IMG/VR virus record: IMGVR_UViG_3300035703_000072
Location: 5,881 to 69,880 of that record
Strand: one strand, 5' to 3'
Length of the DNA stretch: 64,000 nucleotides
Source: a virus
Shown: piece by piece, positions 12,130-36,680 of the stretch
How positions within the stretch are numbered: the first letter of the stretch is position 1
How the letters are laid out: each line of letters opens with the position of its first letter
Position numbers and translations under genes: made by a program
The notes under the pieces: generated by a model
Seen by the model: only the letters and a program-made list of their open reading frames with translations
The model's database searches: none
What the model was told of the DNA's origin: nothing

Positions 12130-12366
12130 TTACGTTGCCTTTATGTGACCTTTGGCCACTAGAAAATTTATCCTTTGAATAACTTCAACTCTTTGGCTTT
12201 TTGAAAGCGCACTTTCTTTCCTTTGAATTTTATAGTACTCTTCAATTAACGAGTCGTAGTTCTGCTCTACCTGCTCGATTTTTGCTTTTATTTTTGGCTG
12301 CCTTTTTTTGAAAGGTAGAATAAAAGGAAAAAACACCCATGTTAAAATTAGCTTTATTGATTTCAT
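12130..12366 (-). CDS. Hypothetical protein with N-terminal hydrophobic segment
   Basis: 78 aa, coupled to portal stop; similar to 24899..25090. Confidence 0.6.
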   Translation of the reverse strand: MKSIKLILTWVFFPFILPFKKRQPKIKAKIEQVEQNYDSLIEEYYKIQRKESALSKSQRVEVIQRINFLVAKGHIKAT

Positions 12367-13781
12367 TATACGCTAGCATTAGGTTGTGTTGATTCTGACT
12401 TGATTTTTTCAATTTCTTCTGTTGGATTTTCAACCATGTTAAGCATTTTGATTGAAGTTTCAGTCGATAACAATCCAGCTTCTTTAAGCCCCTTGATGAT
12501 GTTTGAAGCCGACTCCAAATCATCAGGAAGTATTGAATTGAAATTGATGTCGTAATACAAATCGGTAGCATCTTTTTTCAATCCGATGTTAGTTGTTGTA
12601 ATGCTTCCGGAAATCAATATATTTATGATTCTTTCAATCATCGTTCTGTTCTCTCCCTCGTTGCTCATAGCCTTGATAATGGCATCCAAGAACATCAACT
12701 TTAAAGCAACTCCCGATGTGTTACCCAATGACTTCAAATTGTCAAATGATAGGTCAGGTGTTTGAGAAATTGAGAATATCAACTTCCAAATAAGTTCGAG
12801 CTCGTTCTTATGGCTTTCATTTCCTCCCGATGATTCGATGAACTTTGCATCGCCATGAACATACTTACCGTCTTCGTCTTTCTTCATGGCCAAATTGATA
12901 ACCTTACCATCATCATCCTTATCAGGAAGCGCTGTTATCTCGCCATAAGTAGCTAAAATTGGGTGAGCTGTTCTATCGTTGGCTCCACCGCCTTTAGAAA
13001 TTGCCACCTCGAAACGATCTATCAACTCTTTAACATCAAACCATTCCGGCTCGTCTTGCGAAACGTAAACAATAGGAATTCTATCGAAGCCATGAGGAAG
13101 CGAACTAATCAGTTTTAATGTTCCATCGGCATCATTGATGATATAAGACTTGGAAGCATCCCATATCTGAACATTGTTAACGGTTTTCTCGTCCAACGTT
13201 TGAGTTTGATACTCCCACATAAACAATATCATATCGCCATTGGCATCGAAGTAAGGCGTCATTGTGCCTTTAGAGTTGTCTAAAACCTTTGTTTTGATTT
13301 CTTTTTTGGCATTCAATCCTAATTTAGCAAGGATTTTATTGAAAATGCCATCTTGCTTCATATCTGAAATATAAAAGTTCAAAGCGCCTTGGGTTTCGGT
13401 TTTCTTTAAGTAAACCAATTTTTGAATGGCAGCATCAATTCGGTTGTTTTTCCAAATCAATGAAATCAATTTGGTTAAATCGTTTTCAACTGATGGAATA
13501 AGAGTAACCGGCTTTCCTACTTCGAAAGAAGTAGAAGTAGTTGATATTTTTTTGGCAAAGTTGATAGGAATTCTAACAGCTCTAACAAGTTTTGATTTTT
13601 CACCGGTTCCAACGGTTTTATCCTTTTGGATATTTCCAACTTGTGTTTGCCTTTGGGTTCTGTCGAACTCCTTAAGCTCTTTTTTATAAGCGGTAATTTT
13701 TTGAGGGTCTTTTGTTTTTAATTTGATTTTCGCAATTGCCGATTTCGGATCGGACAATATAAGCTTCAACAGTTCTTCCAT
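12366..13781 (-). CDS. Portal protein A (SPP1 gp6-like)
   Basis: 471 aa, PHGFDRIPIV, TPDLSFD..GNTSGVALK motifs; follows terL. Confidence 0.92.
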   Translation of the reverse strand: MEELLKLILSDPKSAIAKIKLKTKDPQKITAYKKELKEFDRTQRQTQVGNIQKDKTVGTGEKSKLVRAVRIPINFAKKISTTSTSFEVGKPVTLIPSVENDLTKLISLIWKNNRIDAAIQKLVYLKKTETQGALNFYISDMKQDGIFNKILAKLGLNAKKEIKTKVLDNSKGTMTPYFDANGDMILFMWEYQTQTLDEKTVNNVQIWDASKSYIINDADGTLKLISSLPHGFDRIPIVYVSQDEPEWFDVKELIDRFEVAISKGGGANDRTAHPILATYGEITALPDKDDDGKVINLAMKKDEDGKYVHGDAKFIESSGGNESHKNELELIWKLIFSISQTPDLSFDNLKSLGNTSGVALKLMFLDAIIKAMSNEGENRTMIERIINILISGSITTTNIGLKKDATDLYYDINFNSILPDDLESASNIIKGLKEAGLLSTETSIKMLNMVENPTEEIEKIKSESTQPNASV

Positions 13782-13798
13782 GATTTCTGATTTATTTA

Positions 13799-15250
13799 TT
13801 AGTAATTTATTGATTTCAATACCTCTTCCGGTGTTTGTAAAACTTTAGACTCTGAATTAAAAGCGATGTGGCCATAACGCATATCATCCCATATATGATT
13901 GAAATTATCAATCGGTTGATTGATGGCAATTCCATTTATCTCTCGCATTCTATAATTCTGTTGCTCTTTTAAGGCTTGCTGATAAAGATGGTTTTTAACG
14001 ATATGAATCTTTTTAGTCTTCATAGAGTTAAGCCAGAACATTACCGACTTGGTTTTGCTAATTTTAAATGCATTAACGAAACCTTCTTTTCTAAGCCCTT
14101 TTACCATTTCAACGGTTCCTTTGTTCTCTCCGGTATATTTATCAGCAGAATCGCAAGGGATAATTGCTTCTTTATCAATTCCATTCGCATCAAGCACAGC
14201 GGCTAATTCTCCGGGCGTTTCGATTGGTTGATATGTCAATGGCTCGTACCAAATATTATATTCGTCCTCAGCGTATTTTCCGAGCACGTTCGGGTCTGTT
14301 GTAAATCCAAAGTCAATTGGGTAAATAGCTGCTTTATCTTTTGGAAACTCTTCAATCCACTCAACGTATGGAAATATGACGCCTTTCATAGCTCCACGCA
14401 ATCCAAGTCCATAAACCTTCCAATTGAATTCATCGGCGGTTCCGTTAGCAATATTGGTCGGATGTGGTGGCGGTTGGTTTGATTTAGTCACCGGCTCGAC
14501 CTTTCCAGTGCCTTTGTTATAGCACATAATTATCGAATCCTTAACGATGTAAGAACCGGGTTTCCACGGCTCCCAAGAAAGGATTTTGTTTTTCTCTTGT
14601 GGAGAAATGAATTTGTTATTTTGGTATGTAGTTCTTAAAAAAGCGACATCGGGACGACAAAGTACATTGTCAAAAAACCAGTGATCAGTAACCGAAGGGT
14701 TGTAATCAGCCCACCAAAATTTACGACAACGCAATTCCACCTGGTCAAATACTTCTTGTCGGATGAACATCATTTCATTGAAGAAAGCATAATCACAACC
14801 TCCACCATGCTTTCCATCCCCAAGGAAGTAAATTGTACTGCCGTTTATCTTGAAACTCTTAACCTCTTTAGCTCTATGGAATGGATTTGGAAGACCGTAA
14901 TCATCCAATCGACGTTTGAAATCATCGTACAAAGTAGTTTTGAATTCGTTGTAGGTTTCCCGGTAAATATTGATGGTGCAGTTCTTCTCTACATAAAGGC
15001 AAAGCCAAATGATGATATCAACACCGGACCAAGTTTTTCCGGAACGCGAAGAACCTTCCAAGGCACAACCTCTGTAACCACCAATAAGCTCGTCTCTTTC
15101 GTTGTACAGCTGCTCATTGATGGCTTTGTAAAGCAGCGCATAATTCGGGTTGGTTTCCTCGTCGATTATAGTAAGGCGCTTTCGTGAAATGTCAATATCC
15201 CTTTCTTTCAAAAGGGTTTCAAGTTCTAACATTTCGGCATCGGTGAGCAT
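13799..15250 (-). CDS. terL: Terminase large subunit A (PBSX-like)
   Basis: Walker A EGSSRSGKT, FFNE Walker B, DYNP, IDFG nuclease, NHIWDDMRY. Confidence 0.92.
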   Translation of the reverse strand: MLTDAEMLELETLLKERDIDISRKRLTIIDEETNPNYALLYKAINEQLYNERDELIGGYRGCALEGSSRSGKTWSGVDIIIWLCLYVEKNCTINIYRETYNEFKTTLYDDFKRRLDDYGLPNPFHRAKEVKSFKINGSTIYFLGDGKHGGGCDYAFFNEMMFIRQEVFDQVELRCRKFWWADYNPSVTDHWFFDNVLCRPDVAFLRTTYQNNKFISPQEKNKILSWEPWKPGSYIVKDSIIMCYNKGTGKVEPVTKSNQPPPHPTNIANGTADEFNWKVYGLGLRGAMKGVIFPYVEWIEEFPKDKAAIYPIDFGFTTDPNVLGKYAEDEYNIWYEPLTYQPIETPGELAAVLDANGIDKEAIIPCDSADKYTGENKGTVEMVKGLRKEGFVNAFKISKTKSVMFWLNSMKTKKIHIVKNHLYQQALKEQQNYRMREINGIAINQPIDNFNHIWDDMRYGHIAFNSESKVLQTPEEVLKSINY

Positions 15251-15969
15251 TAGATTATCGTTTGTCTGTCGCGGTTTTTGTAGTTGTAAACACGCTCGAT
15301 ATTATAGATGTAGTTCTTCAAATCGCCCTGCTTATCCATTCCGTTAGGGTTCTGTTTGATTTTGTCTTTTAGCACCTCAAAATCGCACTTACCGGCATTG
15401 AGAATGGCTTGAACGGCACCGATTAAATAGCGGTCTTTTGAGAAGCGATACTGACCGAATAATTCATCTGTCAAACGCAATAAGTCTTTGGTGCTTTCGA
15501 TGTGGTTTGCTTTGAATTCTCCGCTCTCAAATTCTTCTTTACACTTAACCTTTACGTTGTTCTTCATTAGCAAACCAGATATGGTCGAGATAGATATCTT
15601 AAACTCCCTAGATATCTCACCCAAAACAACATAATCTTGAATACCCAATCGGGAGTAACAGTTCAAAAAATCATTTATAGTCCATTTTTGCCCGCGAGAA
15701 TTTAGCCTGGCTATTTGTTGAAGAGTGAAATCGTTTTTGATTAAATAGTAAACTGGTTCCTCGCAAGCAACGCTTGTTTCAAATCTATGTTGGCCATCAA
15801 TAATTCTTAAAAGACCATCAATCTCTTTAACGATAATGGGGCAATAAGGCAGCATGTTAAAGCCGCTTTTGACATCATCAGTCAACTGCTCAACTTTTTT
15901 TCTGTTGATGTTTCTATTACCGTTTATTGTTGAGAATAAAGAGTAGTCTTTTGTTTGAAGGATTTTCAT
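15250..15969 (-). CDS. ParB/Srx N-terminal domain protein
   Basis: GNRNIN..PIIV..IIDGQHRF; translationally coupled to terL. Confidence 0.8.
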   Translation of the reverse strand: MKILQTKDYSLFSTINGNRNINRKKVEQLTDDVKSGFNMLPYCPIIVKEIDGLLRIIDGQHRFETSVACEEPVYYLIKNDFTLQQIARLNSRGQKWTINDFLNCYSRLGIQDYVVLGEISREFKISISTISGLLMKNNVKVKCKEEFESGEFKANHIESTKDLLRLTDELFGQYRFSKDRYLIGAVQAILNAGKCDFEVLKDKIKQNPNGMDKQGDLKNYIYNIERVYNYKNRDRQTII

Positions 15970-15979
15970 GATGATACAA

Positions 15980-16153
15980 TTAGTTATTTTCTACAAAAAC
16001 ATCACTTTCTTTGAGGGTTATTTTGAATTTATCGCCATCTGTACTCTCGGCAAAATCTAAAAGAGCATAGCCAATCAATACCGGATCAACTGTTTCTTTT
16101 CCGTCGATGAATATTCTGTTGTTTACAATTTCGATTTCTGAGTTTCCGGTCAT
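15980..16153 (-). CDS. Hypothetical 57-aa protein
   Basis: MTGNSEIEIVNNRIFIDGKETVDPVLIGYALLDFAE..., ATGA overlap with upstream gene. Confidence 0.55.
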   Translation of the reverse strand: MTGNSEIEIVNNRIFIDGKETVDPVLIGYALLDFAESTDGDKFKITLKESDVFVENN

Positions 16154-16431
16154 TGGTTAGCTTTTTTTAGGATTTGAAGAGGTTTATTTAAATTTAGAGC
16201 AATGATTTTTCGGTCTCTTCCTTTTGCTGCCTCTCTATCATTATCATAAAAACCACACTCATATCGAACGCCTTTAACAGTAATAGAAGAAACCCACTTT
16301 TGGGCTTGGATATTCCAAGTAACACCTGTGTACTTTGATACTCTTTTATGGGTTACGGCCTCTGATTGTTTACTGTATAGCATAAATTCAATTTTAAAAT
16401 ACTGCTGTCTTTCCATTAAGGCATTTGCCAA
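16150..16431 (-). CDS. AP2-domain DNA-binding protein
   Basis: SKYTGVTW..KWVSSI..GFYDNDREAA..RD pattern; true start may be a downstream ATG. Confidence 0.75.
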   Translation of the reverse strand: MANALMERQQYFKIEFMLYSKQSEAVTHKRVSKYTGVTWNIQAQKWVSSITVKGVRYECGFYDNDREAAKGRDRKIIALNLNKPLQILKKANQ

Positions 16432-16557
16432 GCTGTCAGTCTTTTGATAATTCAGCGTGGTTTGTCGCCGGCCGTTTCAAGAGCTTTGAAACAATCATTA
16501 TCAAGGCCTACGTTTCCGACAAGAAAAGATTTATGAAGAAACGGCTACTTAACTACG

Positions 16558-16664
16558 TGGAGAAGAGAGGACTCGAACCTCTGACGCATCTGATTAAGTT
16601 TAGATCTCCCCAAATAAAAACTACACTACAATCAAACCGCTCTAACCAACTGAGCTACTTCCCC
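16558..16664 (-). ncRNA. tRNA-like RNA with extended anticodon arm (copy 1)
   Basis: Acceptor GGGGAAG/CTTCTCC-A, D arm GCTC/GAGC, T arm AGAGG-TTCGAGT-CCTCT; 40 nt replace the 7-nt anticodon loop. Confidence 0.8.
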
Positions 16665-16817
16665 GATTTGCTCGTCTGTTCCGAACCGTCAAGCTACTTA
16701 GCTAATGATTTCACCCTATTCTGGAAATTGATTTCCCGCCATAAACCGTTAGGGCTTGGTGCGTGTCCTATCTGCTTACTCCACGCATTCACTATTGCAG
16801 ATGAATATTTCTTTTTG

Positions 16818-16890
16818 TAGCAAGAGCGGGATTCGAACCCGTGACCTTCGGATTATGAGTCCGACGAGCTGCCGACTGCTCTATCTTGCG
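16818..16890 (-). tRNA. tRNA-Met(CAT), initiator-like
   Basis: 73-nt cloverleaf, loop CTCATAA, C1xU72 mismatch, A11-U24; CCA not encoded. Confidence 0.9.
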
Positions 16891-16895
16891 ATGTT

Positions 16896-16974
16896 AGGCT
16901 TCTATATGTGGCTCGTCTTAAACACCGGATTATGCCACATTCTTATCCGATACGAGTCTGCACGAGTGAAGCCT
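16896..16974 (-). ncRNA. Putative pseudoknotted RNA 5' of tRNA-Met
   Basis: Complementary pairs AGGCTTC/GAAGCCT, CTCGT/ACGAG, CGGAT/ATCCG, ATGTGG/CCACAT. Confidence 0.5.
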
Positions 16975-16981
16975 TTTTATT

Positions 16982-17218
16982 TTAACCAAAAGCAACTTTT
17001 GAACGTCTTTTTCTTTTTACCATGTTGCTCTGACGAGTTGCAATATAAGTCCCATACTGCTTTGGAGTAACTCCATAATCTGGAGGAAACAAAGTTCTAG
17101 GAGCATCGCCCATTGACGCACTTTTTTTAAATTCAATTGCGGATTTATTCGCTGTTTGTGCTGCTGATCCTAAACCAAGCATCGCTGCTGCCATTTTTAG
17201 ATAAGTGTTTTTTCTCAT
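16982..17218 (-). CDS. Hypothetical basic protein
   Basis: 78 aa with own TATATTTG promoter (17243-17250). Confidence 0.6.
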   Translation of the reverse strand: MRKNTYLKMAAAMLGLGSAAQTANKSAIEFKKSASMGDAPRTLFPPDYGVTPKQYGTYIATRQSNMVKRKRRSKVAFG

Positions 17219-17242
17219 AATTTCTACTGTTTTAAATCATTC

Positions 17243-17283
17243 CAAATATAATATTTTATACAATTCATTTGTATTTTATACAA
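17243..17283 (-). promoter_or_regulatory. Promoter with TTGTAT-N3-ATACAA palindrome
   Basis: caaatata 17243-17250; TTGTATTTTATACAA 17269-17283; same layout at 19580-19620. Confidence 0.55.
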
Positions 17284-17301
17284 TTAAAATTTCAAATTTT
17301 T

Positions 17302-17784
17302 TTAAGGTTGCTTTGCTGATAAAGCCTTGGCAACGAGTTCATCAAGGCGTCTTTGCTTTTCAGGACCAAAACCATCTTCAAGGATAATCGGGTTTTCTTT
17401 ATCGCCTTGTACCTTGATTGTTCGGGATGGATAAAGCGCTTCAAGTTTACTGATTTCCTTTTTGATGTTGTTCACAACGGCCATTCCTTTCGGAGTGCCT
17501 TTGTATTCATCTTTCATGTTCCGGATGTCTTGCTTTAATTCAGCAATACGCATGATGCGCTTCTGCTCAATTGTTGAAGCTTCCTCGCGCTGCCAATAAA
17601 CGTATGCTTTATCAAGCAGGTTCTTGGCTTGGCGACGTCCTACCGGTATGCCGTTCTTGTCTTTGAATTGCTGAGTGATGTTTTTAAGTATCAAATAATC
17701 GGGCACGCCGTTGATTATCCACCCTTGAATGATGAATACACGTTTTTCAGTTTCGATTTTACTTGACCTTGCACCTCTTATCAT
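17302..17784 (-). CDS. Putative terminase small subunit A
   Basis: Clear paralogue of 58836..59255, which overlaps terL B; EKRVFIIQGWII..RRQA..MKDEYKGTP. Confidence 0.65.
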   Translation of the reverse strand: MIRGARSSKIETEKRVFIIQGWIINGVPDYLILKNITQQFKDKNGIPVGRRQAKNLLDKAYVYWQREEASTIEQKRIMRIAELKQDIRNMKDEYKGTPKGMAVVNNIKKEISKLEALYPSRTIKVQGDKENPIILEDGFGPEKQRRLDELVAKALSAKQP

Positions 17785-18076: not shown

Positions 18077-19543
18077 TTAATCTATTGCTTCAAGCTCTTC
18101 TCCGAGGTTCAATTCAGGATAGTTTTCTTTGATTTTCTTCGGGTCGCCTTTGTAAAACACCAATACATTTTGGTGCATCTTACCGACTTTGCGACCGCCA
18201 TTGAACTGTCGCTTAACTCTGATGGCTAAGCTTCCAACGGTATTAACCAATATGATTTCGTTGTACAGCTCCATTCCGGCATCCTTAAAGGCTTGAATAG
18301 TATCTGAAACAAAGTTGTAATAGAAGCCTTTTTTATCGCGAACATCACCCACAACAAAGCAAGCGAAACGGTCGTCTTTCAACTGAGCGACTGATTTCTT
18401 GATGATAGAGAAGTAAACCTCTTTAAAGTCTTTGTAGTCCATATTGGATAAGTCTTTCGGGTCGTCGCTGTACTTTTCAAGGTCGGCGTATGGTGGGCAG
18501 GAGTAAACGAAGTCAACACCTGTGTTGTCAAAAGTATCAAGTACTTCATTGCTATCGCCATCAAACCAAAATGCTTTATCAATGCTTAAAATAGAGGCTT
18601 GCTTTCTATTGGCTTCCACCTGGTCCAAACGCAAATCTATACCGGCATAATGATAACCAAGCACTCCGGCAACAATACCCCGAACAGAACCACCGGCGAA
18701 AGGGTCAAGGATTTTACCACCTTCAGGACAGAACCAACGGTATGATAACTCACAAAGCACTGGGTCGAAGATGCTCGCGCCCTCGTAAACGTGTAAGCCT
18801 TTCTTCTTGGCATAATCAATGATTTCATCCCAAGAAGGCTCGCGCTTTAATGACTCGCGCATCTTGTTTCGTAATTCGTAAATAGCGGTCGATTGTCCGC
18901 TTTTTGCAATCAGTTCAACATCTTCTCGGGTTTCCTGAGAATTGAACCCTAAAGACAACCATTTACGCTTTCTGTCTTGCCAAACACCCGAGCGAGTATC
19001 TAAGATTGAAAAAGGTGGAAAGATAAAACTATCTTTAAGCGATGCCGGAACAATCTTTTCAGAACTTCCACCAAGTTCACTTTCTTTAAGCATTCCCTCA
19101 AAAGCAATATTGTCAAATTCGGGTATGTTTAACATCGTTTGTAAATCGGGAAAATCAAGGTTAAAGTTCTGAACAAATTCAAGAAGTCCTTGCTGGGTAA
19201 TTTTAGCATAGGCAGAAGAATATACCAACACAAGCTCGGCGGCTTCTTGCATACTCTCGCAGTCAATGAAAGTGGCCGGAAGAAGCTCGGGAACATTGTA
19301 ACCCGATTTTGAAACCATATCCAAATCAAGAAAACGGTGGCGACCATCCAAGCAATACAAAATACCTTCACTCTCCCATACTTTGAACGGATCGGCGAAT
19401 TGGTATTTAAGCAGCGACTCAATGAGTTTTTTGTCGCCATTGCTTATCCATTCTTTGAAGTTTTCTTGCTGAATGAATTGAAGATTTCGCCATTGGATAG
19501 GCTCTGTTTTAATGATTCTTGATGTAATTGTCTGATTACTCAT
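18077..19543 (-). CDS. ParB-like domain fused to amino-DNA methyltransferase
   Basis: LDGRHRF (ParB), PPFSILD, motif I LDPFAGGS, motif IV SCPPY. Confidence 0.85.
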   Translation of the reverse strand: MSNQTITSRIIKTEPIQWRNLQFIQQENFKEWISNGDKKLIESLLKYQFADPFKVWESEGILYCLDGRHRFLDLDMVSKSGYNVPELLPATFIDCESMQEAAELVLVYSSAYAKITQQGLLEFVQNFNLDFPDLQTMLNIPEFDNIAFEGMLKESELGGSSEKIVPASLKDSFIFPPFSILDTRSGVWQDRKRKWLSLGFNSQETREDVELIAKSGQSTAIYELRNKMRESLKREPSWDEIIDYAKKKGLHVYEGASIFDPVLCELSYRWFCPEGGKILDPFAGGSVRGIVAGVLGYHYAGIDLRLDQVEANRKQASILSIDKAFWFDGDSNEVLDTFDNTGVDFVYSCPPYADLEKYSDDPKDLSNMDYKDFKEVYFSIIKKSVAQLKDDRFACFVVGDVRDKKGFYYNFVSDTIQAFKDAGMELYNEIILVNTVGSLAIRVKRQFNGGRKVGKMHQNVLVFYKGDPKKIKENYPELNLGEELEAID

Positions 19544-19579
19544 GGGTTGTAAAAATGTTTTTTTGGAAATATTCTACAA

Positions 19580-19620
19580 CAAATGTAGCAAAATATACGA
19601 TTGAATTGTATATTATACAA
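19580..19620 (-). promoter_or_regulatory. Promoter with TTGTATATTATACAA palindrome
   Basis: caaatgta 19580-19587; palindrome 19606-19620. Confidence 0.55.
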
Positions 19621-19623
19621 ATG

Positions 19624-19653
19624 AAAAAACCGCCCTTAATCGAGCGGTTATTT
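19624..19653 (-). terminator. Rho-independent terminator
   Basis: AACCGC/GCGGTT hairpin with A tract. Confidence 0.6.
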
Positions 19654-19680
19654 AGTAATTGTTTGATTTTTAACTATTTA

Positions 19681-21063
19681 CTATTTTTTATATTGATCAT
19701 GTAAAACAAATCCTTTGAGTTCTCCGTAGGCTTTGTTGAGTAAGAACCAAGAATCATTTTCTTTGAATTTGACGTGCATAGTTCCTTTTTTGAAGAATTT
19801 AACGTCAAAAAACCCCCATTCATACCAAGTATTAGGTTCAATTTGAAACAATTTCTCGTGTTTTGAGTTGTAATTGAACCTGTAAAGACTTCCTATTGTG
19901 TTATAATCTCTTCCGGTGATATTGCAAAGCACTTTTACCAAATCATCAATCTTTCTAAGTCCGTAGGTGTCATATTTCACATTGAAGCCCATGTATGACA
20001 TTGTTTCCATGATTCCCTCAACGATAAACTTTTTGTTGAGCATGTGCCCGGAGTTGGTTTTCCATCCTTCAACACCGAATCGGTTCTCGTGGGTGTATTT
20101 TGTAAAGTTGTCAATGGCTTCTTCGAGTGCTCTGTTGAAAGTTTCTTTTCGGGTTCCGACAATGATTTCAAGCATTCGATAAATGTTTCGCATGGTAAAA
20201 GGAACTTTTTCTTGCGTTTCGACAAACTTATTGATGTCTTTCATCACTCCGGAAGTAACGTACTTCTCCATGTTCATTTTTTGGAATATGTATTTCCAAG
20301 ATTGCTTTTGGAGAATTTTTGAAAACTGCTCCTTGCTTGTGATGTCCTTGTCGTGTCCGATTTGCAAGTTGATTGAAGACATGTTGATTTGGCCAATCAT
20401 TAAATTAACGGATTCGATTTCGGCTTTCATTCGGTCAAACATCTTCATGGTTCCAACATAACGGTTAACGAGTGCACGTACTTCATTGTATTGCATGATG
20501 CCTTCGCCTTGGATTTCCTCTTCATCCTCTCCCATAAAAAATCCTTCAAACTCGAAATCCTGACTTTTGATAGGCTTGTGCAATCTGATCAGTCCAACCT
20601 CTACACCGGTGGTTCTTTCGGCATCGGAGAAACAATCCCCGAGATTTTCAGTTTGGCCGTAATCTGAAATGATGCTTCTAAGTCTTGGATATGGTCTTTC
20701 AATTGTTGAATAATTGCAAAGCGAAACTATTTCGCATCCATCGGGCGCGACTTCCCAAGCGTGTATGATGTGCTTTTCGGCGTTTGAGAAAGGCGGGTTC
20801 ATGTAAATAGCATGAACGTGGCTGATTTGTTCCGGCTTGCATTCGAAGAAATTCTCGCCAATAAGCGTGGATTTTTGCTTTACGATTTGCTGTAGGTCTT
20901 TATTGATTTCCATGCTGAGTACTTCTTTAGCTCCATTGGAAAGGCAATAATCAACTATGTTGCCTTTTCCGGCGTGAGGTTCAAGTATTACTCTGTTTTT
21001 ACAATCCAAATTCATCATTTGGATTACTTCGGGTGGTGTCGGATAGAATTCTGAATGGAACAT
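19681..21063 (-). CDS. N6-adenine methyltransferase with DUF4942-like C-terminus
   Basis: FYPTP, ILEPHAGKG (motif I), MNPPF (motif IV), FFDVKFFKKGTMH C-terminal motif. Confidence 0.8.
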   Translation of the reverse strand: MFHSEFYPTPPEVIQMMNLDCKNRVILEPHAGKGNIVDYCLSNGAKEVLSMEINKDLQQIVKQKSTLIGENFFECKPEQISHVHAIYMNPPFSNAEKHIIHAWEVAPDGCEIVSLCNYSTIERPYPRLRSIISDYGQTENLGDCFSDAERTTGVEVGLIRLHKPIKSQDFEFEGFFMGEDEEEIQGEGIMQYNEVRALVNRYVGTMKMFDRMKAEIESVNLMIGQINMSSINLQIGHDKDITSKEQFSKILQKQSWKYIFQKMNMEKYVTSGVMKDINKFVETQEKVPFTMRNIYRMLEIIVGTRKETFNRALEEAIDNFTKYTHENRFGVEGWKTNSGHMLNKKFIVEGIMETMSYMGFNVKYDTYGLRKIDDLVKVLCNITGRDYNTIGSLYRFNYNSKHEKLFQIEPNTWYEWGFFDVKFFKKGTMHVKFKENDSWFLLNKAYGELKGFVLHDQYKK

Positions 21064-22984: not shown

Positions 22985-23059
22985 TTATCTTTTACAAATT
23001 GTGCATTTGTCATCTCTGAACAATTGCATCGAGAAACAGTGCTTGCAATACTTCCACAT
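22985..23059 (-). CDS. 24-aa CxxC-CxxC microprotein (copy 2)
   Basis: MWKYCKHCFSMQLFRDDKCTICKR; TAATG coupling to PcfJ stop. Confidence 0.7.
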   Translation of the reverse strand: MWKYCKHCFSMQLFRDDKCTICKR

Positions 23060-24363
23060 TAGGCAGATTGTTTTTTAGGGTTACGTTTTTTCTTTGCTGA
23101 AGCTTTCCGAATTAATGGAACGCTTTTCTTCATCAGTTCGAGAATTCTATCGTGATAATCAGTATTCGAGTTAAATTTTCCTCTGCACTGGATAACCTCC
23201 CAACTTTGAATGCTAAACTCAACTGTTTCTGTTCTCACTCCATTTACTCGGGCGGAAAAAAGCAATGAGTGTGTTTTGGTATAGTAATCGTTTGTGAACA
23301 CGCAGTGCTTTAATTTCTTGCCCTCTTCCTTAAAATCATCAATATTCTGCAATGGTTTGATGGTTAATTCTCCATCGACAAACTCAAGATTCAAGAATCG
23401 TTTCATTCGCTCGATGTAAGCCATGTTCTTCTGTTTGATGTTGGCTTCTTTCTCCTGCTCTCTCTGTATTCTTCTCTTTTCAACTAAAGCATCATGAGCC
23501 GCATTCAAGTCCTCAGGACAAATGTATTTTGGATTGTGTAAGTCCTTCCCGAAATGGCTCAGCAAATTGAGGTAGTCATACCAAATACCAGGGTCTTTGA
23601 TTTCGTACTTATGGCGCAGTGTTATTTTTATCTGTGGCCAATATCTTGAATGATCTGAATCTTTGTATAAGGCATGTTGCAAAATTTCTTTTTGCTTCGA
23701 CTTGAGAAGCGTTTCAATCTTAGGAGACATCCTAACTTTTTCAATCAAACGTCTATAGTCGCAATCATGCTCAAAGCAGTCAAGGCTATACTTTTCAAAC
23801 TGAGGTAGGAACTGAGCACCAGGACAATTGTAATCTGAAGCAAATCGGTCGTAATCGTTTCCTCTCCAACTTCTCGTATTCACATATCGTACTTCATAAG
23901 TTCCTCTGAATCCATCGCCATAGAAACAAGGCAAAGCTCCAACAATTACTCTCTTATCTTTTTCATAATCTTTCCACTCTTCGAAAAGTCTATGGAACGA
24001 GTACTGAGGTTTCTTCTTCTTTGACATGTGCTTCCAACATGATAAGTAACGCATCACTTGGAATCGGCCAAATACTTCAGCTACGCCAAAAGTGATAATT
24101 CTTGTTGCCATGCCACCGTTCTCTGTAGCTACTTTTTTGAGCTGCCTTCCACATGAAGGACACTCTACTCCGGAAACTTCCTCTTGCCACATTTGCATTT
24201 CAGGTTTCCATTGGTGGTTACATTCTAAACAGATGAAGTTCTTGTAATGGGTAGTAAAGTAAAACTCATGCTTTGATATGATGTAAGGCTCATGCTCTTT
24301 AGTTGGAAGAAGTCTTTGGTGCAAATCCCAAACCTCTATCTGTAACTTGGTTTTCGGTTTCAT
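23059..24363 (-). CDS. PcfJ-domain protein
   Basis: Zn ribbons CLEC/CPSC, WYDYL..L..FGKD, EGKKLKHCV, QCRG; adjacent to PcfK-like gene. Confidence 0.85.
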   Translation of the reverse strand: MKPKTKLQIEVWDLHQRLLPTKEHEPYIISKHEFYFTTHYKNFICLECNHQWKPEMQMWQEEVSGVECPSCGRQLKKVATENGGMATRIITFGVAEVFGRFQVMRYLSCWKHMSKKKKPQYSFHRLFEEWKDYEKDKRVIVGALPCFYGDGFRGTYEVRYVNTRSWRGNDYDRFASDYNCPGAQFLPQFEKYSLDCFEHDCDYRRLIEKVRMSPKIETLLKSKQKEILQHALYKDSDHSRYWPQIKITLRHKYEIKDPGIWYDYLNLLSHFGKDLHNPKYICPEDLNAAHDALVEKRRIQREQEKEANIKQKNMAYIERMKRFLNLEFVDGELTIKPLQNIDDFKEEGKKLKHCVFTNDYYTKTHSLLFSARVNGVRTETVEFSIQSWEVIQCRGKFNSNTDYHDRILELMKKSVPLIRKASAKKKRNPKKQSA

Positions 24364-24881
24364 TATCCAAATAGTGTTGGTTGAACTTCTTCTTTCTGCT
24401 CCGGCTTAGCTTCAGTCTTTTTAGACTTTGCCGTCATCTTCTCGAGCGCTTGTGTAACAGCCAGCTCTTTGGCTTTTTGTTTAGCCTCTTCGATTTCTTC
24501 AGGAGAAAGAGTGATTTCATTCTTGAGTTGCTCTTTGATCTCCGGAATGTATTTTGACTTCTCAGTTTCAAACAAAACCTTTTTGGCTTTCTCTTTTTCT
24601 TCTTCAGATAGTTCTACACCTCGGTTGATAATTACATTGGCGCTGATAGCTGCAACGTCTTTGATGTTGTCCTCGTCGTAGTAGTGTACAGCCCATCCAA
24701 ATACTTCTTCATCTGAGTATCCGGCACAGCCTCCATCCTTGGCGCACTTCAAAACATAGTTGCAGCATTCCTCAAGGCTCTTGTGTGGTTTTTGATAGTT
24801 GGCAGCGAACAGTTCATCTTCAGCTGCACGTTTGTCAAGGTAGTTTTTGATTGTTTCTTTGAAATGTTGTGATGATTTCAT
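24363..24881 (-). CDS. PcfK-like protein (AcrIIA9 family)
   Basis: HFKETIKNYLDKRA..DELFA..Y, DEEVF..AVHYYDED. Confidence 0.85.
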   Translation of the reverse strand: MKSSQHFKETIKNYLDKRAAEDELFAANYQKPHKSLEECCNYVLKCAKDGGCAGYSDEEVFGWAVHYYDEDNIKDVAAISANVIINRGVELSEEEKEKAKKVLFETEKSKYIPEIKEQLKNEITLSPEEIEEAKQKAKELAVTQALEKMTAKSKKTEAKPEQKEEVQPTLFG

Positions 24882-27901: not shown

Positions 27902-28232
27902 GAGCCGGAAATAAATTATAGGTTAAACAAGGTTCACACATCCCTTTATCGTTGCTTATAATGCCTTCAGCGATTTGTAAAAGGCGGTTGTACTTATCTC
28001 TGAAGATTGCATCATAAAGCATTAGGTCTCTGAATTTCTTTTGATAGTAGATTACATGGTCATGATGCACTCCAAATACATTCCCTATCTTTTGAAAGGT
28101 GTAGTACTTTCTGCTTCTCAGAATAACCGATACAGCTATTCTTGCATCAACATTCTTTCTGTTTCTCTTTCTTTCAAAACAGTTACCTTCAAATATCTCA
28201 TTTGCCTTGTGGCATAGTTCAATGTGATTCAT
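27882..28232 (-). CDS. DnaA C-terminal-like HTH protein
   Basis: R.R..VDAR..Y.TFQKIG..F..HH..VIY. Confidence 0.65.
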   Translation of the reverse strand: MNHIELCHKANEIFEGNCFERKRNRKNVDARIAVSVILRSRKYYTFQKIGNVFGVHHDHVIYYQKKFRDLMLYDAIFRDKYNRLLQIAEGIISNDKGMCEPCLTYNLFPAHGKRTA

Positions 28233-29896
28233 TACTTGAATAGGTTTACTACGTTATCAATAAAGCTCATATCCATTTCATCGGTGGCTCCGGTAATGGT
28301 GTTACCGATATGGCGTTTCTCCTGAATCATTTGGTACATTTCCTCATCAATGGTGTTCTGACCAAGGAAGTAGGTACACATGACATTATTCTTTTGGCCA
28401 ATACGGTGCGCTCTGTCCTCGCACTGGGCACAATCCGCATACGTCCATGGGTACTCGATAAATGCTACACGACTTGAAGCGGTAAGCGTGATACCTACAC
28501 CGGCAGCTTTAATGTTACAAACAATGAGCTGCACCTTCGGATCAGTTTGGAAACTGTCAATTGCCTTTTGCTTTTCTTCAGAAGTCATTCTGCCATTAAC
28601 TGAAACCGCATTCGGGAACAATCTTCTTACCTCGTCACCAATCTCATGTAGGTTGTGGAATAAAATCAGCTTCTCTCCGGCTTCCAATACCTCTTGAACG
28701 AACTCTTTAACCTCGTTCATCTTTCCTTTGGCGGAGATTTGTTTTAATGCTCCCATACGCACCATGATTTCGCCTCGAAGCTTGCGAGCGATTTCCTCAT
28801 CGTTACAACCTTTTTCCTCAAGCCACTGTACAAAATCATTCTTGGCTTTGTTATACTCGGCCCGGTTCGTGATATCACAAAGGATAGTTTGGCGTTGTTT
28901 ATCCGGAAGGTCTTTGGCCACGTCTTTTTTCTCTCGTCTGAAGAAACAATGAACGTTAAGCATGTAGTTCAGCTCTCTGAGGTTAGAAGCGCCGGAACCA
29001 CCTTCACAGTATCTTTCTCGGAATGATTTCTCATTGGCCAATTTTCCAATGATGGCCAGCTGAGGTAATGCATCGATAGGTTTGTTGACAATCATAGTAC
29101 CGGTTAAACCAACTCGGTAGAGTTTACCTATTGCGATTTGCAAGGCGATTTTGGTTTGTTGGGTGTTACGGTCTTTGCATCTGTGAATCTCGTCTATAAT
29201 GACAGAATTGAATAGTTTAACTCGGGGATTCATAACGATGTCGGACGACTTGTATGGTTTCTTGTCCGGCATCTTATCCACGAAGTACTTCTTCATCGAT
29301 TCGTAGTTGACAATGAATACATCAATACCGGCTACCTCATGGTAACGATGCCAGGTGTCTTTGATTTTGTCCTCAAGGATGATGGCTTTCTTTCCGGTCC
29401 ACATTTCCCATTCACGTTTCCAATTGATTTTGGTTGATGCCGGACAAATTACCAGGCATGGGAAAGTAATCTCGTTGTTGTATTTCTGTGCTGAATAGAT
29501 TGTTGCGATGGACTGCATTGTTTTACCAAGACCTTGCTCGTCGCCATTGATAAAACGTTTTAATTGTAGGCCACGTGCAACTCCTTGAAGTTGGTATGGT
29601 CTTGGCTTGAATCCATTTTCTCGGTTGTAAATGTCAATCTCAAAGGCTAAATCGGGCATAGGTGGTATTTCTCCGATTTCTTCAGGAACACGTGTCTGAG
29701 CGACAATCCACTCAGCACGTGTTTTTTTCTGAATTTCTTCGAGCGCATCACGTTGAGAAAATGGAACAGTCCAAGATTTGCGAGCCATTACAAACTTGGC
29801 TCCGGGTATCATCTTGATAAGATTGGTATTGTGAACCCGAAACCGTGTGTATGGTATTTTTACGTGAAATTCTGTTGGATGTTCAATAATTTGCAT
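28232..29896 (-). CDS. SNF2-family helicase
   Basis: DEQGLGKT, DEIH, LTGT, GVGITL, QCEDRAHRIGQ. Confidence 0.93.
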   Translation of the reverse strand: MQIIEHPTEFHVKIPYTRFRVHNTNLIKMIPGAKFVMARKSWTVPFSQRDALEEIQKKTRAEWIVAQTRVPEEIGEIPPMPDLAFEIDIYNRENGFKPRPYQLQGVARGLQLKRFINGDEQGLGKTMQSIATIYSAQKYNNEITFPCLVICPASTKINWKREWEMWTGKKAIILEDKIKDTWHRYHEVAGIDVFIVNYESMKKYFVDKMPDKKPYKSSDIVMNPRVKLFNSVIIDEIHRCKDRNTQQTKIALQIAIGKLYRVGLTGTMIVNKPIDALPQLAIIGKLANEKSFRERYCEGGSGASNLRELNYMLNVHCFFRREKKDVAKDLPDKQRQTILCDITNRAEYNKAKNDFVQWLEEKGCNDEEIARKLRGEIMVRMGALKQISAKGKMNEVKEFVQEVLEAGEKLILFHNLHEIGDEVRRLFPNAVSVNGRMTSEEKQKAIDSFQTDPKVQLIVCNIKAAGVGITLTASSRVAFIEYPWTYADCAQCEDRAHRIGQKNNVMCTYFLGQNTIDEEMYQMIQEKRHIGNTITGATDEMDMSFIDNVVNLFK

Positions 29897-31469: not shown

Positions 31470-31556
31470 TGGAGAAGAGAGGACTCGAACCTATGACACC
31501 ATCGCTACCACTTTTACAGATAGCCAATGCGCTCTAACCAACTGAGCTACTTCTCC
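31470..31556 (-). ncRNA. tRNA-like RNA with extended anticodon arm (copy 2)
   Basis: Acceptor GGAGAAG/CTTCTCC-A, same D arm and T loop as copy 1; 20 nt replace the anticodon loop. Confidence 0.8.
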
Positions 31557-36532: not shown

Positions 36533-36637
36533 TATCGTCAATAATAAAATTCAAATTCAATAATTCATAGTATCATTCCAAGATAATTGTAGCTTACAAA
36601 TCAGCGGTTTAAGATATCATTCCCGATAGCACATTCT

Positions 36638-36679
36638 CTGTTAATCAGAGGGTCCTTGGTTCGAGCCCAAGAGGGGGAG
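36638..36679 (+). other. att core: 3' half of tRNA-Asn(GTT)
   Basis: CTGTTAA TCAGA GGGTC CTTGG TTCGAGC CCAAG AGGGGGA G; no D arm or 5' acceptor upstream. Confidence 0.88.
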
Positions 36680-36680
36680 C

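What the first reader, a model, noticed from the sequence alone, without database searches (positions are those of the whole stretch)
16558..16664. tRNA-shaped RNA whose anticodon loop is replaced by a long hairpin, with an alanine acceptor
Seen: intact acceptor, D and T arms and anticodon stem GTTTG/CAGAT. The loop is 40 nt and folds further (ATT/AAT, AGTTT/AAACT, ATTT/AGAT). The acceptor has G3.U70 and A73. Known: G3.U70 is the AlaRS determinant, and AlaRS ignores the anticodon. Inference: a chargeable but non-decoding tRNA mimic, such as a decoy for anticodon nucleases or tRNA-sensing defences, a non-ribosomal Ala donor, or an RNase P/Z processing scaffold. A second copy with a different extended arm argues against simple decay.
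Basis: partly seen in the sequence, partly recalled or inferred. Interest (0 to 1): 0.85.

Follow-up and report, generated by a model that had tools for sequence, protein, structure and literature searches.

The report
Anticodon-less alanine tRNA mimic in phage
A temperate phage of Bacteroidota carries a gene shaped like an alanine tRNA whose anticodon loop is replaced by a long hairpin; it belongs to a recurrent family of non-decoding tRNA look-alikes in related phages, and its job is still unknown.

Summary
On the minus strand, 16558-16664 is a 107-nt tRNA-shaped gene (Rfam tRNA 47 bits, full model). It has intact acceptor, D and T arms, G3.U70 and A73. A 40-nt insert continues the anticodon stem as one hairpin. 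A second copy lies at 31470-31556(-) with a different 20-nt insert, but it has A3-U70 and a T-stem mismatch.

The gene is not a one-off. Of 59 relatives with the region upstream of the terminase gene present, 20 carry the same tRNA-Ala-like body. Prophages of Flavobacterium, Sphingobacterium and Kaistella carry it too. In these, the anticodon arm is replaced by unrelated segments of 8-67 nt, and some have structured D-loop insertions. The T stem covaries while the alanine acceptor stays constant.

Arms of 8-12 nt, and a different pseudo-anticodon in each member, rule out a decoder or an intron-bearing tRNA.

Best reading: an accessory, non-decoding tRNA-Ala-derived small RNA that host enzymes mature like a tRNA. 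Copy 1 probably accepts alanine. It would act as a tRNA decoy or as a scaffold for variable hairpins. No expression data, partner protein or published description was found.

The parts
16558..16664 (-). tRNA-Ala-like gene, copy 1 (107 nt): whole RNA from G1 (16664) to A73 (16558); no CCA encoded (next bases CGT)
   Evidence: Rfam tRNA 47.0 bits, model 1-71; family model R1 83.3 bits; sequence read
16658..16664 (-). acceptor stem 5' strand GGGGAAG (G3 at 16662)
   Evidence: sequence; pairs with 16559-16565 in the fold
16639..16655 (-). D arm GCTC-AGTTGGTTA-GAGC with G18 G19
   Evidence: G18, G19 and A14 invariant in 32 of 32 aligned members
16588..16637 (-). extended arm (50 nt): anticodon stem GTTTG/CAGAT plus a 40-nt insert that continues it as a hairpin of about 22 bp with apical loop AUUUGG; contains UGUAG twice
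   Evidence: MFE fold; arm alone z -2.54; 9 consecutive closing pairs; base of stem changed to Watson-Crick pairs in 3 metagenome relatives
16583..16587 (-). variable loop GCGTC (family consensus AGGTC)
16566..16582 (-). T arm AGAGG-TTCGAGT-CCTCT
   Evidence: T stem covaries in the family, 4 of 5 pairs with double changes
16558..16565 (-). acceptor stem 3' strand CTTCTCC (U70 at 16561) and discriminator A73 (16558)
   Evidence: sequence
31470..31556 (-). tRNA-like gene, copy 2 (87 nt): same body but A3-U70 and a U50/C64 mismatch; 20-nt insert forming a 10-bp arm with a 9-nt loop UGUAAAAGU; ends 16 nt before the start codon of ORF 31064-31453
   Evidence: Rfam tRNA 47.2 bits; R1 70.8 bits
16817..16890 (-). 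ordinary tRNA-Met(CAT), 152 nt upstream of copy 1 on the same strand: the two form a small tRNA cluster
   Evidence: ARAGORN; Rfam 60.2 bits

Best explanation
Copy 1 is a functional but non-decoding small RNA derived from a Bacteroidota tRNA-Ala. It belongs to an accessory family found in the tRNA cluster just upstream of the terminase genes of related temperate phages.

Shown:
- The tRNA 'upper half' is kept: acceptor, T arm, D arm, the G18 G19/T-loop elbow and the variable loop.
- The anticodon arm is replaced by a hairpin that cannot present an anticodon at the right distance.

Inferred:
- The transcript is cut by host RNase P and RNase Z and receives CCA like its tRNA-Met neighbour.
- Copy 1, with A73, G2-C71, G3.U70 and G4-C69, is a substrate of host AlaRS, which does not read the anticodon.
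- The mature RNA then works through its tRNA body. Either it is a mimic that occupies or diverts a host or defence factor that recognises tRNA(Ala) or tRNA shape, or it is a stable, correctly processed scaffold that displays fast-evolving hairpin modules. I cannot separate these two sub-readings.
- Copy 2 (A3-U70, T-stem mismatch) is probably not alanylated. It may be a decaying paralogue or a member of a separate uncharged lineage.
For: 1. tRNA shape. Rfam tRNA matches the full model at 47.0 and 47.2 bits, and the MFE of copy 1 is the cloverleaf with an extended arm.

2. It is a family.
- A model built from 32 members (R1) finds 25 matches of 58.9 bits or more in the window plus 80 terminase-linked loci. 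The next best match, 45.7 bits, is L097, another extended tRNA-like gene with a different acceptor. The ordinary tRNAs score 45.5 bits or less.
- 20 of the 59 loci that hold at least 2.5 kb upstream of the terminase gene have a member, 620-2054 nt upstream of it.
- 6 further members lie in Flavobacterium (2), Sphingobacterium (2), a Kaistella MAG and a Bacteroidetes MAG.

3. The body is under selection.
- 98.0% of body cells are paired, against 91.5% in shuffles (0 of 500 shuffles reach it).
- 4 of 5 T-stem pairs show double changes, while the acceptor is G3.U70 in 30 of 32.
- U8, A14, G18, G19 and the T loop are invariant.

4. It is not a decoder.
- Arms range from 8 to 67 nt and are unrelated in sequence. 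Six members have only 8-12 nt in place of the anticodon arm (L084, L239, L099, L116, L169) or 14 unpaired nt (L100).
- ARAGORN with introns allowed gives 11 members with the Ala body ten different 'isotypes' (Pro, Val, Thr twice, Pyl, Leu, Arg, Asp, Ser, His, Ala).

5. The inserts are structured, not junk.
- L092 and L164 differ in the arm only by U:A to A:U at one pair.
- D-loop mini-hairpins GGA-GAAA-TCC, GAA-GAAA-TTC, GGA-GUAA-TCC and GC-GAAA-GC keep pairing.
- Five D-loop insertions of different sequence share one three-tier fold.

6. Close relatives of copy 1 itself. It is identical in one metagenome contig. In three others (4 runs, 4 studies) the hairpin is kept and G28.U77 and U30.G75 become G-C and U-A. 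The acceptor is unchanged (the mapping to the RNA is mine).

7. The body resembles host tRNA-Ala(TGC) of Flavobacterium and Sphingobacterium: GGGG.../...CTCCA, AGGTC and a similar T arm.

8. The alanine identity set lies in the acceptor only (PMC9976931, passages).
Against: - No expression, processing or charging data exist.
- The family is dispensable. 39 of 59 relatives lack it, including one record rated 100% complete (G001).
- Acceptor invariance is partly by construction, because members were collected with patterns that contain the acceptor. One relative with the same D and T arms has another acceptor (L097, AGGTTGT, C73). L092 has two acceptor mismatches and L124 has U73.
- Copy 2, L081 and L082 carry A3-U70, so charging cannot be essential to all members.
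- Only 14 of 32 arms keep a closing stem of 4 or more pairs, and 7 of 32 beat shuffles at p <= 0.05.
- The fold of copy 1 is only modestly better than shuffles (10 of 200).
- No neighbouring protein family goes with the RNA: the best uncorrected p is 0.014 among 25 clusters.
- The phage genome holds no antisense target longer than 11 nt.
Confidence: 0.55

Rival explanations
1. RNA punctuation element. The tRNA-shaped body serves only in cis as an RNase P / RNase Z cleavage signal. It would separate or stabilise the mRNAs of a long phage transcript, and the released RNA has no function of its own.
For: - Only the parts needed by RNase P and RNase Z are conserved: the acceptor-T minihelix, the elbow and the D arm.
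- Copy 2 sits 78 nt after the exonuclease gene and 16 nt before the next start codon.
- In at least 14 of 21 relatives the gene starts 3-8 nt after a terminator-like hairpin plus T run, at the boundary between early genes and the packaging genes.
- The anticodon arm is free to vary.
Against: - A pure cleavage signal needs structure, not a fixed acceptor sequence. Yet the acceptor keeps the alanine determinants while the T stem covaries (with the ascertainment caveat).
- The inserts include conserved, covarying modules and GNRA hairpins. A cleavage signal would not need them.
- Ordinary tRNAs (Met, Tyr) in the same clusters could already serve as punctuation.
Confidence: 0.15
2. Decaying tRNA pseudogenes. 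Former phage tRNA-Ala genes were hit by insertions in the anticodon loop and are now neutral remnants.
For: - Copy 2 has lost G3.U70, has a T-stem mismatch and does not fold best as a cloverleaf.
- L092 has acceptor mismatches.
- The family is absent from 39 of 59 relatives.
- A truncated HNH/AP2 homing-endonuclease remnant lies next to copy 1, a sign of local turnover.
Against: - Neutral decay would erode body and arm alike. Instead the body is 98% paired with compensatory T-stem changes, across phages whose terminases are 53-96% identical.
- None of the 25 matches of 58.9 bits or more to model R1 has a normal 7-nt anticodon loop, so no intact parent sits in these loci.
- Inserts carry compensatory changes.
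Confidence: 0.12
3. Intron-bearing tRNA. The insert is removed after transcription, by an unknown bacterial or phage splicing route, to give a decoding tRNA.
For: - The insert lies in the anticodon loop, where tRNA introns lie.
- ARAGORN with introns allowed can force models: 'Asn(gtt)' with a 31-nt intron for copy 1 and 'Thr(ggt)' with a 13-nt intron for copy 2.
Against: - There is no group I intron match at Rfam gathering score in the window, or at E <= 1 around the gene. The insert is 35-40 nt.
- The fold is a continuous helix with 1-nt bulges, not a bulge-helix-bulge.
- No NGC anticodon is available near the loop, so any spliced product with G3.U70 would put alanine at the wrong codons.
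- Relatives have 8-12 nt in place of the whole arm, D-loop insertions and ten different forced 'isotypes'.
- DNA contigs of relatives keep the insert.
Confidence: 0.07
4. Miniature tmRNA-like rescuer or blocker. The alanine-charged RNA would enter stalled ribosomes with SmpB, with the hairpin taking the place of tmRNA helix 2.
For: - It shares G3.U70, A73, a T arm and the lack of an anticodon with the tRNA-like domain of tmRNA. That domain is processed by RNase P, is alanylated and binds EF-Tu (PMC3985003, abstract seen in the listing).
Against: - ARAGORN's tmRNA search finds none. No tmRNA family reaches Rfam's gathering score. For L205 the best tmRNA match is tmRNA_permuted at 15.5 against 47 bits.
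- A canonical D stem is present, whereas tmRNA lacks one (recalled).
- I did not look for a tag reading frame systematically. Copy 1's insert holds TAG twice, plus TGA and TAA.
Confidence: 0.03
5. DNA-level element. The tRNA-like DNA would be an attachment (att) site or a recombination target rather than an RNA gene.
For: - The phage is temperate-like, with a CI-like repressor at 35077-35778(+) and an integrase-like gene at 36786-38039(+).
- The two copies are direct repeats 15 kb apart.
Against: - Both halves of the tRNA are kept, not only the 3' part.
- Copy 1 is 20 kb from the integrase gene.
- Body pairs covary as RNA helices.
- The segment between the copies holds core replication genes.
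Confidence: 0.02

Closest known systems
tRNA-like domain of tmRNA (SsrA)
   Same: It has an alanine acceptor with G3.U70 and A73, a T arm and no anticodon. It is a tRNA-shaped end attached to a long non-tRNA helix. tmRNA is processed by RNase P, charged by AlaRS and bound by EF-Tu (PMC3985003, abstract in the listing).
   Different: The RNA here keeps a canonical D stem. It is 68-165 nt across the family. It has no pseudoknots and no recognised tag frame, and neither ARAGORN nor the Rfam tmRNA models call it.
Phage T4 RNAC / RNAD (species 1 and 2 stable RNAs in the T4 tRNA cluster)
   Same: These are small stable phage RNAs of unknown function encoded next to phage tRNA genes. PMC9697503 (passages) calls them 'RNAs of yet unknown functions', expressed late. 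Their tRNA-like ends are recalled, not checked.
   Different: No sequence relation was tested. The T4 RNAs are not known to carry a full tRNA-Ala body.
Engineered 'tRNA scaffold' for recombinant RNA
   Same: The architecture is the same: a tRNA whose anticodon arm is replaced by a cargo hairpin, so that the cell processes and stabilises it like a tRNA. PMC3753655 and PMC3401473 were seen as search listings and abstracts only. The design details are recalled.
   Different: The scaffold is man-made, whereas the arrangement here is natural, recurrent and diversifying.
Aminoacylatable tRNA-like structures at the 3' ends of plant RNA viruses
   Same: These are viral RNAs that mimic tRNA well enough to be processed and charged without decoding (recalled).
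   Different: They are cis elements of RNA genomes in eukaryotic hosts, built with pseudoknotted acceptors, and accept valine, histidine or tyrosine.
Multi-intron and otherwise disrupted tRNA genes of Archaea
   Same: They have insertions in the anticodon loop and also in the D loop (PMC4033280, abstract in the listing).
   Different: Those inserts have bulge-helix-bulge boundaries and are spliced to give decoders. Here there is no such motif and no anticodon remains in several members.
Bacillus cereus tRNA-Other (pseudo-tRNA with a regulatory role)
   Same: It is a tRNA-shaped RNA that does not work in translation but has a cellular effect (PMC3399842, abstract in the listing).
   Different: It is chromosomal, has normal tRNA size and has no replaced arm.

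Membership tests
Canonical decoding tRNA (Rfam RF00005) | Cloverleaf with acceptor, D and T arms | tested here: met
   47.0 bits, model 1-71; the MFE fold is the cloverleaf
Canonical decoding tRNA (Rfam RF00005) | 5-bp anticodon stem closed by a 7-nt loop with U33 and an anticodon at 34-36 | tested here: not met
   40-nt loop that pairs on itself; ARAGORN default does not call copy 1
Substrate of bacterial AlaRS (alanine identity set) | G3.U70 wobble pair | tested here: met
   Copy 1: G at 16662, U at 16561. Copy 2: NOT met (A3-U70). Identity set from PMC9976931.
Substrate of bacterial AlaRS (alanine identity set) | A73, G2-C71, G4-C69 | tested here: met
   Read from the sequence; also present in copy 2
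Substrate of bacterial AlaRS (alanine identity set) | G20 (minor determinant) | tested here: not met
   The D loop is AGUUGGUUA, so position 20 is U. Host tRNA-Ala of Flavobacterium and Sphingobacterium also lacks G there.
Substrate of bacterial AlaRS (alanine identity set) | Actual alanylation | not testable with these tools
   Needs an in vitro charging assay or acid-gel analysis
tmRNA | tRNA-like domain without a D stem, pseudoknots, and a tag reading frame with resume and stop codons | tested here: not met
   ARAGORN finds no tmRNA; no tmRNA family reaches the gathering score; a D stem is present
tRNA with group I intron | Catalytic core of a group I intron (more than about 200 nt) in the anticodon loop | tested here: not met
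   No Intron_gpI match at gathering score in the window, or at E <= 1 in 16400-17000; the insert is 35-40 nt
tRNA with archaeal/eukaryal-type intron | Bulge-helix-bulge at the exon-intron borders, and a functional anticodon loop after removal | tested here: not met
   Continuous helix with 1-nt bulges; no alanine anticodon available; relatives with 8-12 nt arms
Phage tRNA-Ala-like, anticodon-less RNA family defined here (model R1) | Conserved tRNA-Ala body (GGGGAAG acceptor, G18 G19, AGGTC-like variable loop, T arm) with the anticodon arm replaced | tested here: met
   R1 scores 83.3 bits (copy 1) and 70.8 bits (copy 2). The family scores 58.9 bits or more and ordinary tRNAs 45.5 or less. Both copies were in the seed alignment, so their scores are not independent.
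Phage tRNA-Ala-like, anticodon-less RNA family defined here (model R1) | Position in a tRNA cluster upstream of the small and large terminase genes, on the same strand | tested here: met
   Copy 1 lies 1308 nt upstream of the terminase start (15250), and relatives lie 620-2054 nt upstream. Copy 2 does not: it lies in the replication/recombination module.

The most novel reading that the evidence does not exclude
Phages of Flavobacteriia and Sphingobacteriia carry a fast-evolving class of alanine-chargeable tRNAs with no anticodon. The invariant AlaRS/RNase P/EF-Tu-competent body would be a delivery handle. The swappable hairpin modules in the anticodon position and the D loop would be decoys or binding sites aimed at host tRNA-directed immunity, such as nucleases or modifying enzymes that read tRNA loops.

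The 4.5-fold excess of UGUA (the U33-G34-U35-A36 core of the tRNA-Tyr loop) in the modules hints at this. So does the frequent company of a phage tRNA-Tyr gene.
Probability: 0.15. Interest if true: 0.9.

Novelty: new variant of a known kind. Interest (0 to 1): 0.7.

Why it matters
tRNA mimics that are processed and charged but do not decode are known from tmRNA and from plant RNA viruses. A natural, diversifying family of them in DNA phages would be a new way for phages to use the host tRNA machinery.

It also bears on annotation. Default tRNA finders either miss these genes or give them arbitrary isotypes, so they inflate or distort phage tRNA counts.

The family gives a ready experimental system. 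Cultured Flavobacterium and Sphingobacterium strains carry members in prophages.

It is also nature's version of the engineered tRNA scaffold. It could show which insert positions (anticodon arm, D loop position 16/17) a tRNA body tolerates in vivo.

Tried and rejected
- **Intron reading.** Rejected; see the rivals.
- **Known RNA families.** Rfam at gathering score on the window, at E <= 1 on 16400-17000 and at E <= 5 on the 165-nt member L205 gave only tRNA above threshold.
- **Antisense target.** blastn-short of both arms against the 69,880-nt genome found nothing longer than 11 nt (E >= 0.56) apart from the arms themselves and the other copy's body.
- **Partner protein.** I clustered ORFs of 45 aa or more in the 4 kb upstream of the terminase gene in 59 loci. 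No cluster tracked the RNA: the best uncorrected Fisher p was 0.014 among 25 clusters, with phylogeny not controlled. Pfam and PHROGs gave nothing tRNA-related for the flanking ORFs. The structural half of the genome was not scanned.
- **ORFs on the + strand over the gene** (16425-16820 and 16756-17070). No PHROG match; taken as spurious.
- **Relatives of the copy-2 site.** The search for related loci with the exonuclease 31635-32615 found no relative, so I could not test whether copy 2 is conserved in place.
- **Isolated phages.** There was no near-identical DNA. The closest terminase is Cellulophaga phage Nekkels_1 at 59%, and its annotation shows no tRNA there. I did not scan that locus with the RNA model.
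- **RNAalifold on three small subfamilies**. The alignments were too poor to use. I relied on pairwise comparisons instead.
- **Expression.** No RNA holder was listed among the public runs, and only DNA contigs were laid. This says nothing about expression.
- **Literature.** Seven full-text searches found no description of an anticodon-less tRNA-Ala-like family in phages. PMC10690425 (passages) reports tRNA-like candidate RNAs in IMG/VR.
- **The search of earlier findings.** It was closed.
- **UGUA enrichment**. It is real against shuffles and against flanking DNA. But it is partly explained by GUAA tetraloops and by shared modules, and 10 of 28 members lack the motif. I use it only as a lead.
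Full report
**What is there.**

The window is part of a 69,880-nt virus record. Nearly all genes around the finding run on the minus strand:
- portal, 12366-13781
- large terminase, 13799-15250
- a ParB-like protein in the small-terminase position, 15250-15969
- two DNA methyltransferases, 18077-21063
- a helicase, 28232-29896
- an exonuclease, 31635-32615

A CI-like repressor (35077-35778, +) and an integrase-like gene (36786-38039, +) mark the phage as temperate. The closest isolated phage by terminase is Cellulophaga phage Nekkels_1, at 59% identity.

The finding lies on the minus strand at exactly the stated coordinates. Rfam's tRNA model matches 16558-16664 over its full length at 47.0 bits (gathering score 29; E 6.5e-07 for the window). 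It places a 35-nt insertion in the anticodon loop.

Read directly, the RNA has these parts:
- acceptor GGGGAAG/CTTCTCC, with G3.U70, then A73
- a standard D arm with G18 G19
- stem GUUUG/CAGAU enclosing 40 nt
- variable loop GCGUC
- T arm AGAGG-UUCGAGU-CCUCU

No CCA is encoded. An ordinary tRNA-Met(CAT) lies 152 nt upstream on the same strand.

**Is the hairpin real?**

The minimum-free-energy fold of the 107-nt RNA is the cloverleaf. The anticodon stem runs on as one helix of about 22 bp with two 1-nt bulges, one 1x1 internal loop and a 6-nt apical loop (-30.7 kcal/mol).

Stability is moderately above chance:
- Whole RNA: z -1.93, with 10 of 200 dinucleotide shuffles as good.
- Arm alone: z -2.54 against 200 mononucleotide shuffles.
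- Nine consecutive closing pairs are reached by 0.8% of shuffles.

**The second copy.**

31470-31556(-) is an 87-nt paralogue at 47.2 bits. Its 5' 27 nt and 3' 28 nt each differ from copy 1 by one base. Both differences matter. G3 is A, giving A3-U70. G50 is U, giving a U/C mismatch in the T stem.

Its insert is an unrelated 20 nt that forms a 10-bp arm with one bulge and a 9-nt loop. Its cloverleaf (-22.4) is 6.5 kcal/mol worse than a non-tRNA fold. Two other viral contigs (L081, L082) carry the same A3-U70 acceptor and the same T arm with yet other middles. This may therefore be a lineage rather than a fresh lesion.

**It is a family.**

The large terminase recovered 80 related loci in IMG/VR at 53-96% identity. 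ARAGORN with introns allowed found 'intron-bearing' tRNAs just upstream of the terminase gene in many of them. Eleven distinct ones share the body GGGGAAG-UAGCUCAG...GGUUAGAGC...AGGUC-T arm-CUUCUCC-A. ARAGORN gave these ten different isotypes (Pro, Val, Thr twice, Pyl, Leu, Arg, Asp, Ser, His, Ala), which means no anticodon is conserved.

I aligned 32 members (A1) and built a covariance model of the body only (R1). On the window plus the 80 loci it gives 25 matches of 58.9 bits or more. The next best, 45.7 bits, is L097, an extended tRNA-like gene with a different acceptor. Ordinary tRNAs score 45.5 bits or less.

Distribution:
- Of the 59 loci that hold at least 2.5 kb upstream of the terminase gene, 20 have a member, 620-2054 nt upstream of it.
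- Of five relatives searched whole, three have one member. Two have none, including one rated 100% complete.
- A scan of one genome per prokaryote species found six more, all in Bacteroidota: Flavobacterium (2), Sphingobacterium (2), a Kaistella MAG and a Bacteroidetes MAG.

The RNA is therefore an accessory gene of temperate phages of Flavobacteriia and Sphingobacteriia.

**What is conserved and what is not.**

In A1, 98.0% of the body's base-pair cells are standard pairs, against 91.5% in shuffles (0 of 500 reach it). Sliding the partners drops this to 43-62%. Four of five T-stem pairs show changes on both sides (for example AGAGG/CCUCU, AGCGG/CCGUU, GAUGG/CCAUC, GCCGG/CCGGC). The acceptor is almost invariant and is G3.U70 in 30 of 32. 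U8, A14, G18, G19 and the T loop never vary.

One caveat applies. Members outside the terminase loci were collected with patterns that include the acceptor, so the invariance of the acceptor is partly by construction. Exceptions exist: L097 has the same D and T arms but acceptor AGGUUGU and C73, L092 has two mismatches, and L124 has U73.

The body closely resembles the hosts' own tRNA-Ala(TGC), which reads GGGGGAU.../...AUUCUCC-A with AGGUC and a similar T arm.

The region between the D stem and the variable loop behaves quite differently. It ranges from 8 to 67 nt and is unrelated between subfamilies. Even the relative whose terminase is 92% identical to ours (L084) has a different design: almost no anticodon arm and a 38-nt insertion in the D loop.

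Members L084, L239, L099, L116, L169 and L100 have only 8-14 nt where the 17-nt anticodon arm should be. They cannot decode, spliced or not.

**The inserts look selected, at least in part.**

- L092 and L164 differ in the arm by exactly two bases, which turn one U:A pair into A:U.
- D-loop insertions all sit between positions 15 and 18. Some are mini-hairpins with GNRA loops whose stems covary (GGA/UCC, GAA/UUC, GC/GC). Others are 38-43-nt domains which, in five lineages of different sequence, fold into the same three-tier hairpin with a 3'-side internal loop.
- Subsets share insert modules (L113/L160/L205, and L091/L143/L181/L195).
- Against this, only 14 of 32 arms keep a closing stem of 4 or more pairs, and only 7 of 32 beat shuffles at p <= 0.05.

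**Close relatives of copy 1 itself.**

I laid contigs of four public metagenome runs from four studies on 15900-17400. The runs were recorded as lake water, microbial mat and freshwater, and the possible source run was left out. All four hold the locus.

One contig carries an identical gene. Three carry a variant with changes clustered at + strand 16582-16590, and one of these also differs at 16624.

Mapped to the RNA (my mapping), the distal hairpin and the acceptor are unchanged. At the base of the arm, G28.U77 and U30.G75 become G-C and U-A, and A49-U65 becomes G.U. These changes preserve or strengthen the helix. Overall divergence is only about 2%, so the unchanged hairpin is weak evidence on its own.

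**What it is not.**

- Not a known Rfam family other than tRNA.
- Not a tmRNA by ARAGORN or Rfam.
- Not a group I intron: no match, and far too short.
- Not a bulge-helix-bulge intron.
- No alanine anticodon is available around the loop. A spliced product with G3.U70 would therefore mistranslate.
- The arms have no antisense target longer than 11 nt in the phage genome.
- No neighbouring protein family tracks the RNA.
- The + strand ORFs across the gene have no relatives.

**How it most likely works.**

Shown: a tRNA-Ala body under purifying selection, with the decoding end replaced.

From established knowledge:
- RNase P, RNase Z and the CCA-adding enzyme recognise the acceptor-T minihelix and the elbow (recalled).
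- Bacterial AlaRS reads A73, G2-C71, G3.U70 and G4-C69 and no anticodon base. A3-U70 abolishes alanylation in the systems tested (PMC9976931, passages).
- A tRNA whose anticodon arm is lengthened by about 17 bp cannot span the distance between decoding centre and peptidyl-transferase centre (recalled).

Inferred: copy 1 is transcribed with tRNA-Met, matured like a tRNA and probably alanylated, but never decodes. It then acts through its tRNA body. It may be a mimic that ties up a factor which recognises tRNA(Ala) or tRNA shape. Or it may be a natural 'tRNA scaffold' that gives fast-changing hairpins precise ends and stability.

I put 0.55 on this reading as a whole. I put much less on any one target.

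Two leads are worth recording:
- In the same loci, the other tRNA-like genes with disrupted anticodon arms have tRNA-Leu-like D arms and A73 (L107, L117, L113 second gene). LeuRS, like AlaRS, ignores the anticodon (recalled). L097 and L094's second gene do not fit this pattern.
- UGUA is 4.5 times commoner in the variable parts than in the flanking phage DNA: 24 in 1404 nt, present in 18 of 28 members, and the top 4-mer against shuffles. Copy 1 has UGUAG twice, and copy 2 shows UGUAAAA in its loop. Part of the excess comes from GUAA tetraloops.

**Context that may matter.**

In at least 14 of 21 relatives the gene starts 3-8 nt after a terminator-like hairpin and T run, at the border between early genes and packaging genes. 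The 3' trailer is CAA(A) in most members. This fits expression by read-through into the late operon, and it keeps the cis 'punctuation' rival alive.

**Novelty and verdict.**

Seven literature searches found no description of such a family. A 2023 survey of candidate structured RNAs in IMG/VR mentions tRNA-like candidates, but I could not see its supplementary tables.

The closest analogues are the tRNA-like domain of tmRNA, the T4 RNAC/RNAD stable RNAs of unknown function, plant-virus tRNA-like structures and the engineered tRNA scaffold.

I rate it a new variant of a known kind (tRNA mimics), with interest 0.7. The anatomy and the family are solid. Expression, charging and function remain untested.

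Noticed in passing
L001, L005-L013 and more than 60 of the 80 loci (e.g. L001:814-904): There is an abundant 109-nt tRNA-shaped family in viral contigs of one large sample. It has acceptor ACCCAAG/CTTGGGT, normal D and T arms, and a 7-bp stem AGACCAA/TTGGTCT closing a 22-nt loop. A CCAG...CTGG pairing changes to CCAT...ATGG in a 106-nt variant. It is a different thing from the finding.
   Followed up: no
L107:5025-5171, L117:1723-1837, L113:5115-5233, L094:5000-5142: Relatives of this phage also carry tRNA-like genes of 115-148 nt with interrupted anticodon arms and A73. Three of them have a tRNA-Leu-like D arm. LeuRS, like AlaRS, does not read the anticodon (recalled).
   Followed up: partly
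L090:4587-4654, L111:4603-4670, L124:4316-4383, nested in L119:5178-5307: These are compact 68-nt tRNA-Ala(GGC)-like genes with G3.U70, a short anticodon stem and a 3-4-nt variable loop. In L119 one is embedded in a longer 130-nt tRNA-like match.
   Followed up: no
L084:550-590, L133:5112-5152, L099:5206-5250, L239:9417-9461(-), L205:3727-3775: D-loop insertion domains of 38-43 nt have different sequences but the same three-tier hairpin architecture. Shorter GNRA mini-hairpins occupy the same D-loop position in L168, L129, L111, L295 and L097.
   Followed up: partly
window 16150-16431 (-): A small ORF holds only an AP2 DNA-binding domain, and its best PHROG matches are HNH endonucleases. It looks like a remnant of a homing endonuclease, directly downstream of the tRNA-like gene.
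   Followed up: partly
window 16817-16890 (-): The neighbouring tRNA-Met(CAT) has an unpaired first acceptor position (C1/U72). It may be an initiator-like or tRNA-Ile2-like species rather than an elongator Met.
   Followed up: no
window about 16906-16940 (-); also upstream of L133:5098: A conserved hairpin (ATGTGG...CCACAT around AUAAUCCGGUGUUUAAGA) lies just upstream of the tRNA cluster, both here and in a distant relative.
   Followed up: no
window 16444 (+ coordinate): All four laid metagenome relatives have 17 extra bases after this position, so this record carries a 17-nt deletion between the tRNA-like gene and the AP2 ORF. Two of the relatives also replace about 220 nt at 16983-17208 (the 78-aa ORF) with unrelated sequence of the same length.
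   Followed up: no
L238:3983-4095(-), L082:9533-9655, L191:5299-5419, L186:8908-9026(-): tRNA-like genes from other viral lineages have inserts of about 50 nt in the anticodon loop. The inserts share a layout: a hairpin, then an A-rich stretch with AAC(A/U)GCAA-like words. Most have G3-C70 acceptors. L082 sits in the tRNA array of a 142-kb contig.
   Followed up: no
window 35077-38039 (+): A lysogeny module lies in the middle of the record, transcribed opposite to almost everything else: a CI-like repressor (HTH plus S24 peptidase), a DUF4468-like ORF and an integrase-like gene.
   Followed up: partly
window 23059-24881 (-): PcfJ-like and PcfK-like proteins, families first named from conjugative plasmids, are encoded side by side in the phage's early region.
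   Followed up: no
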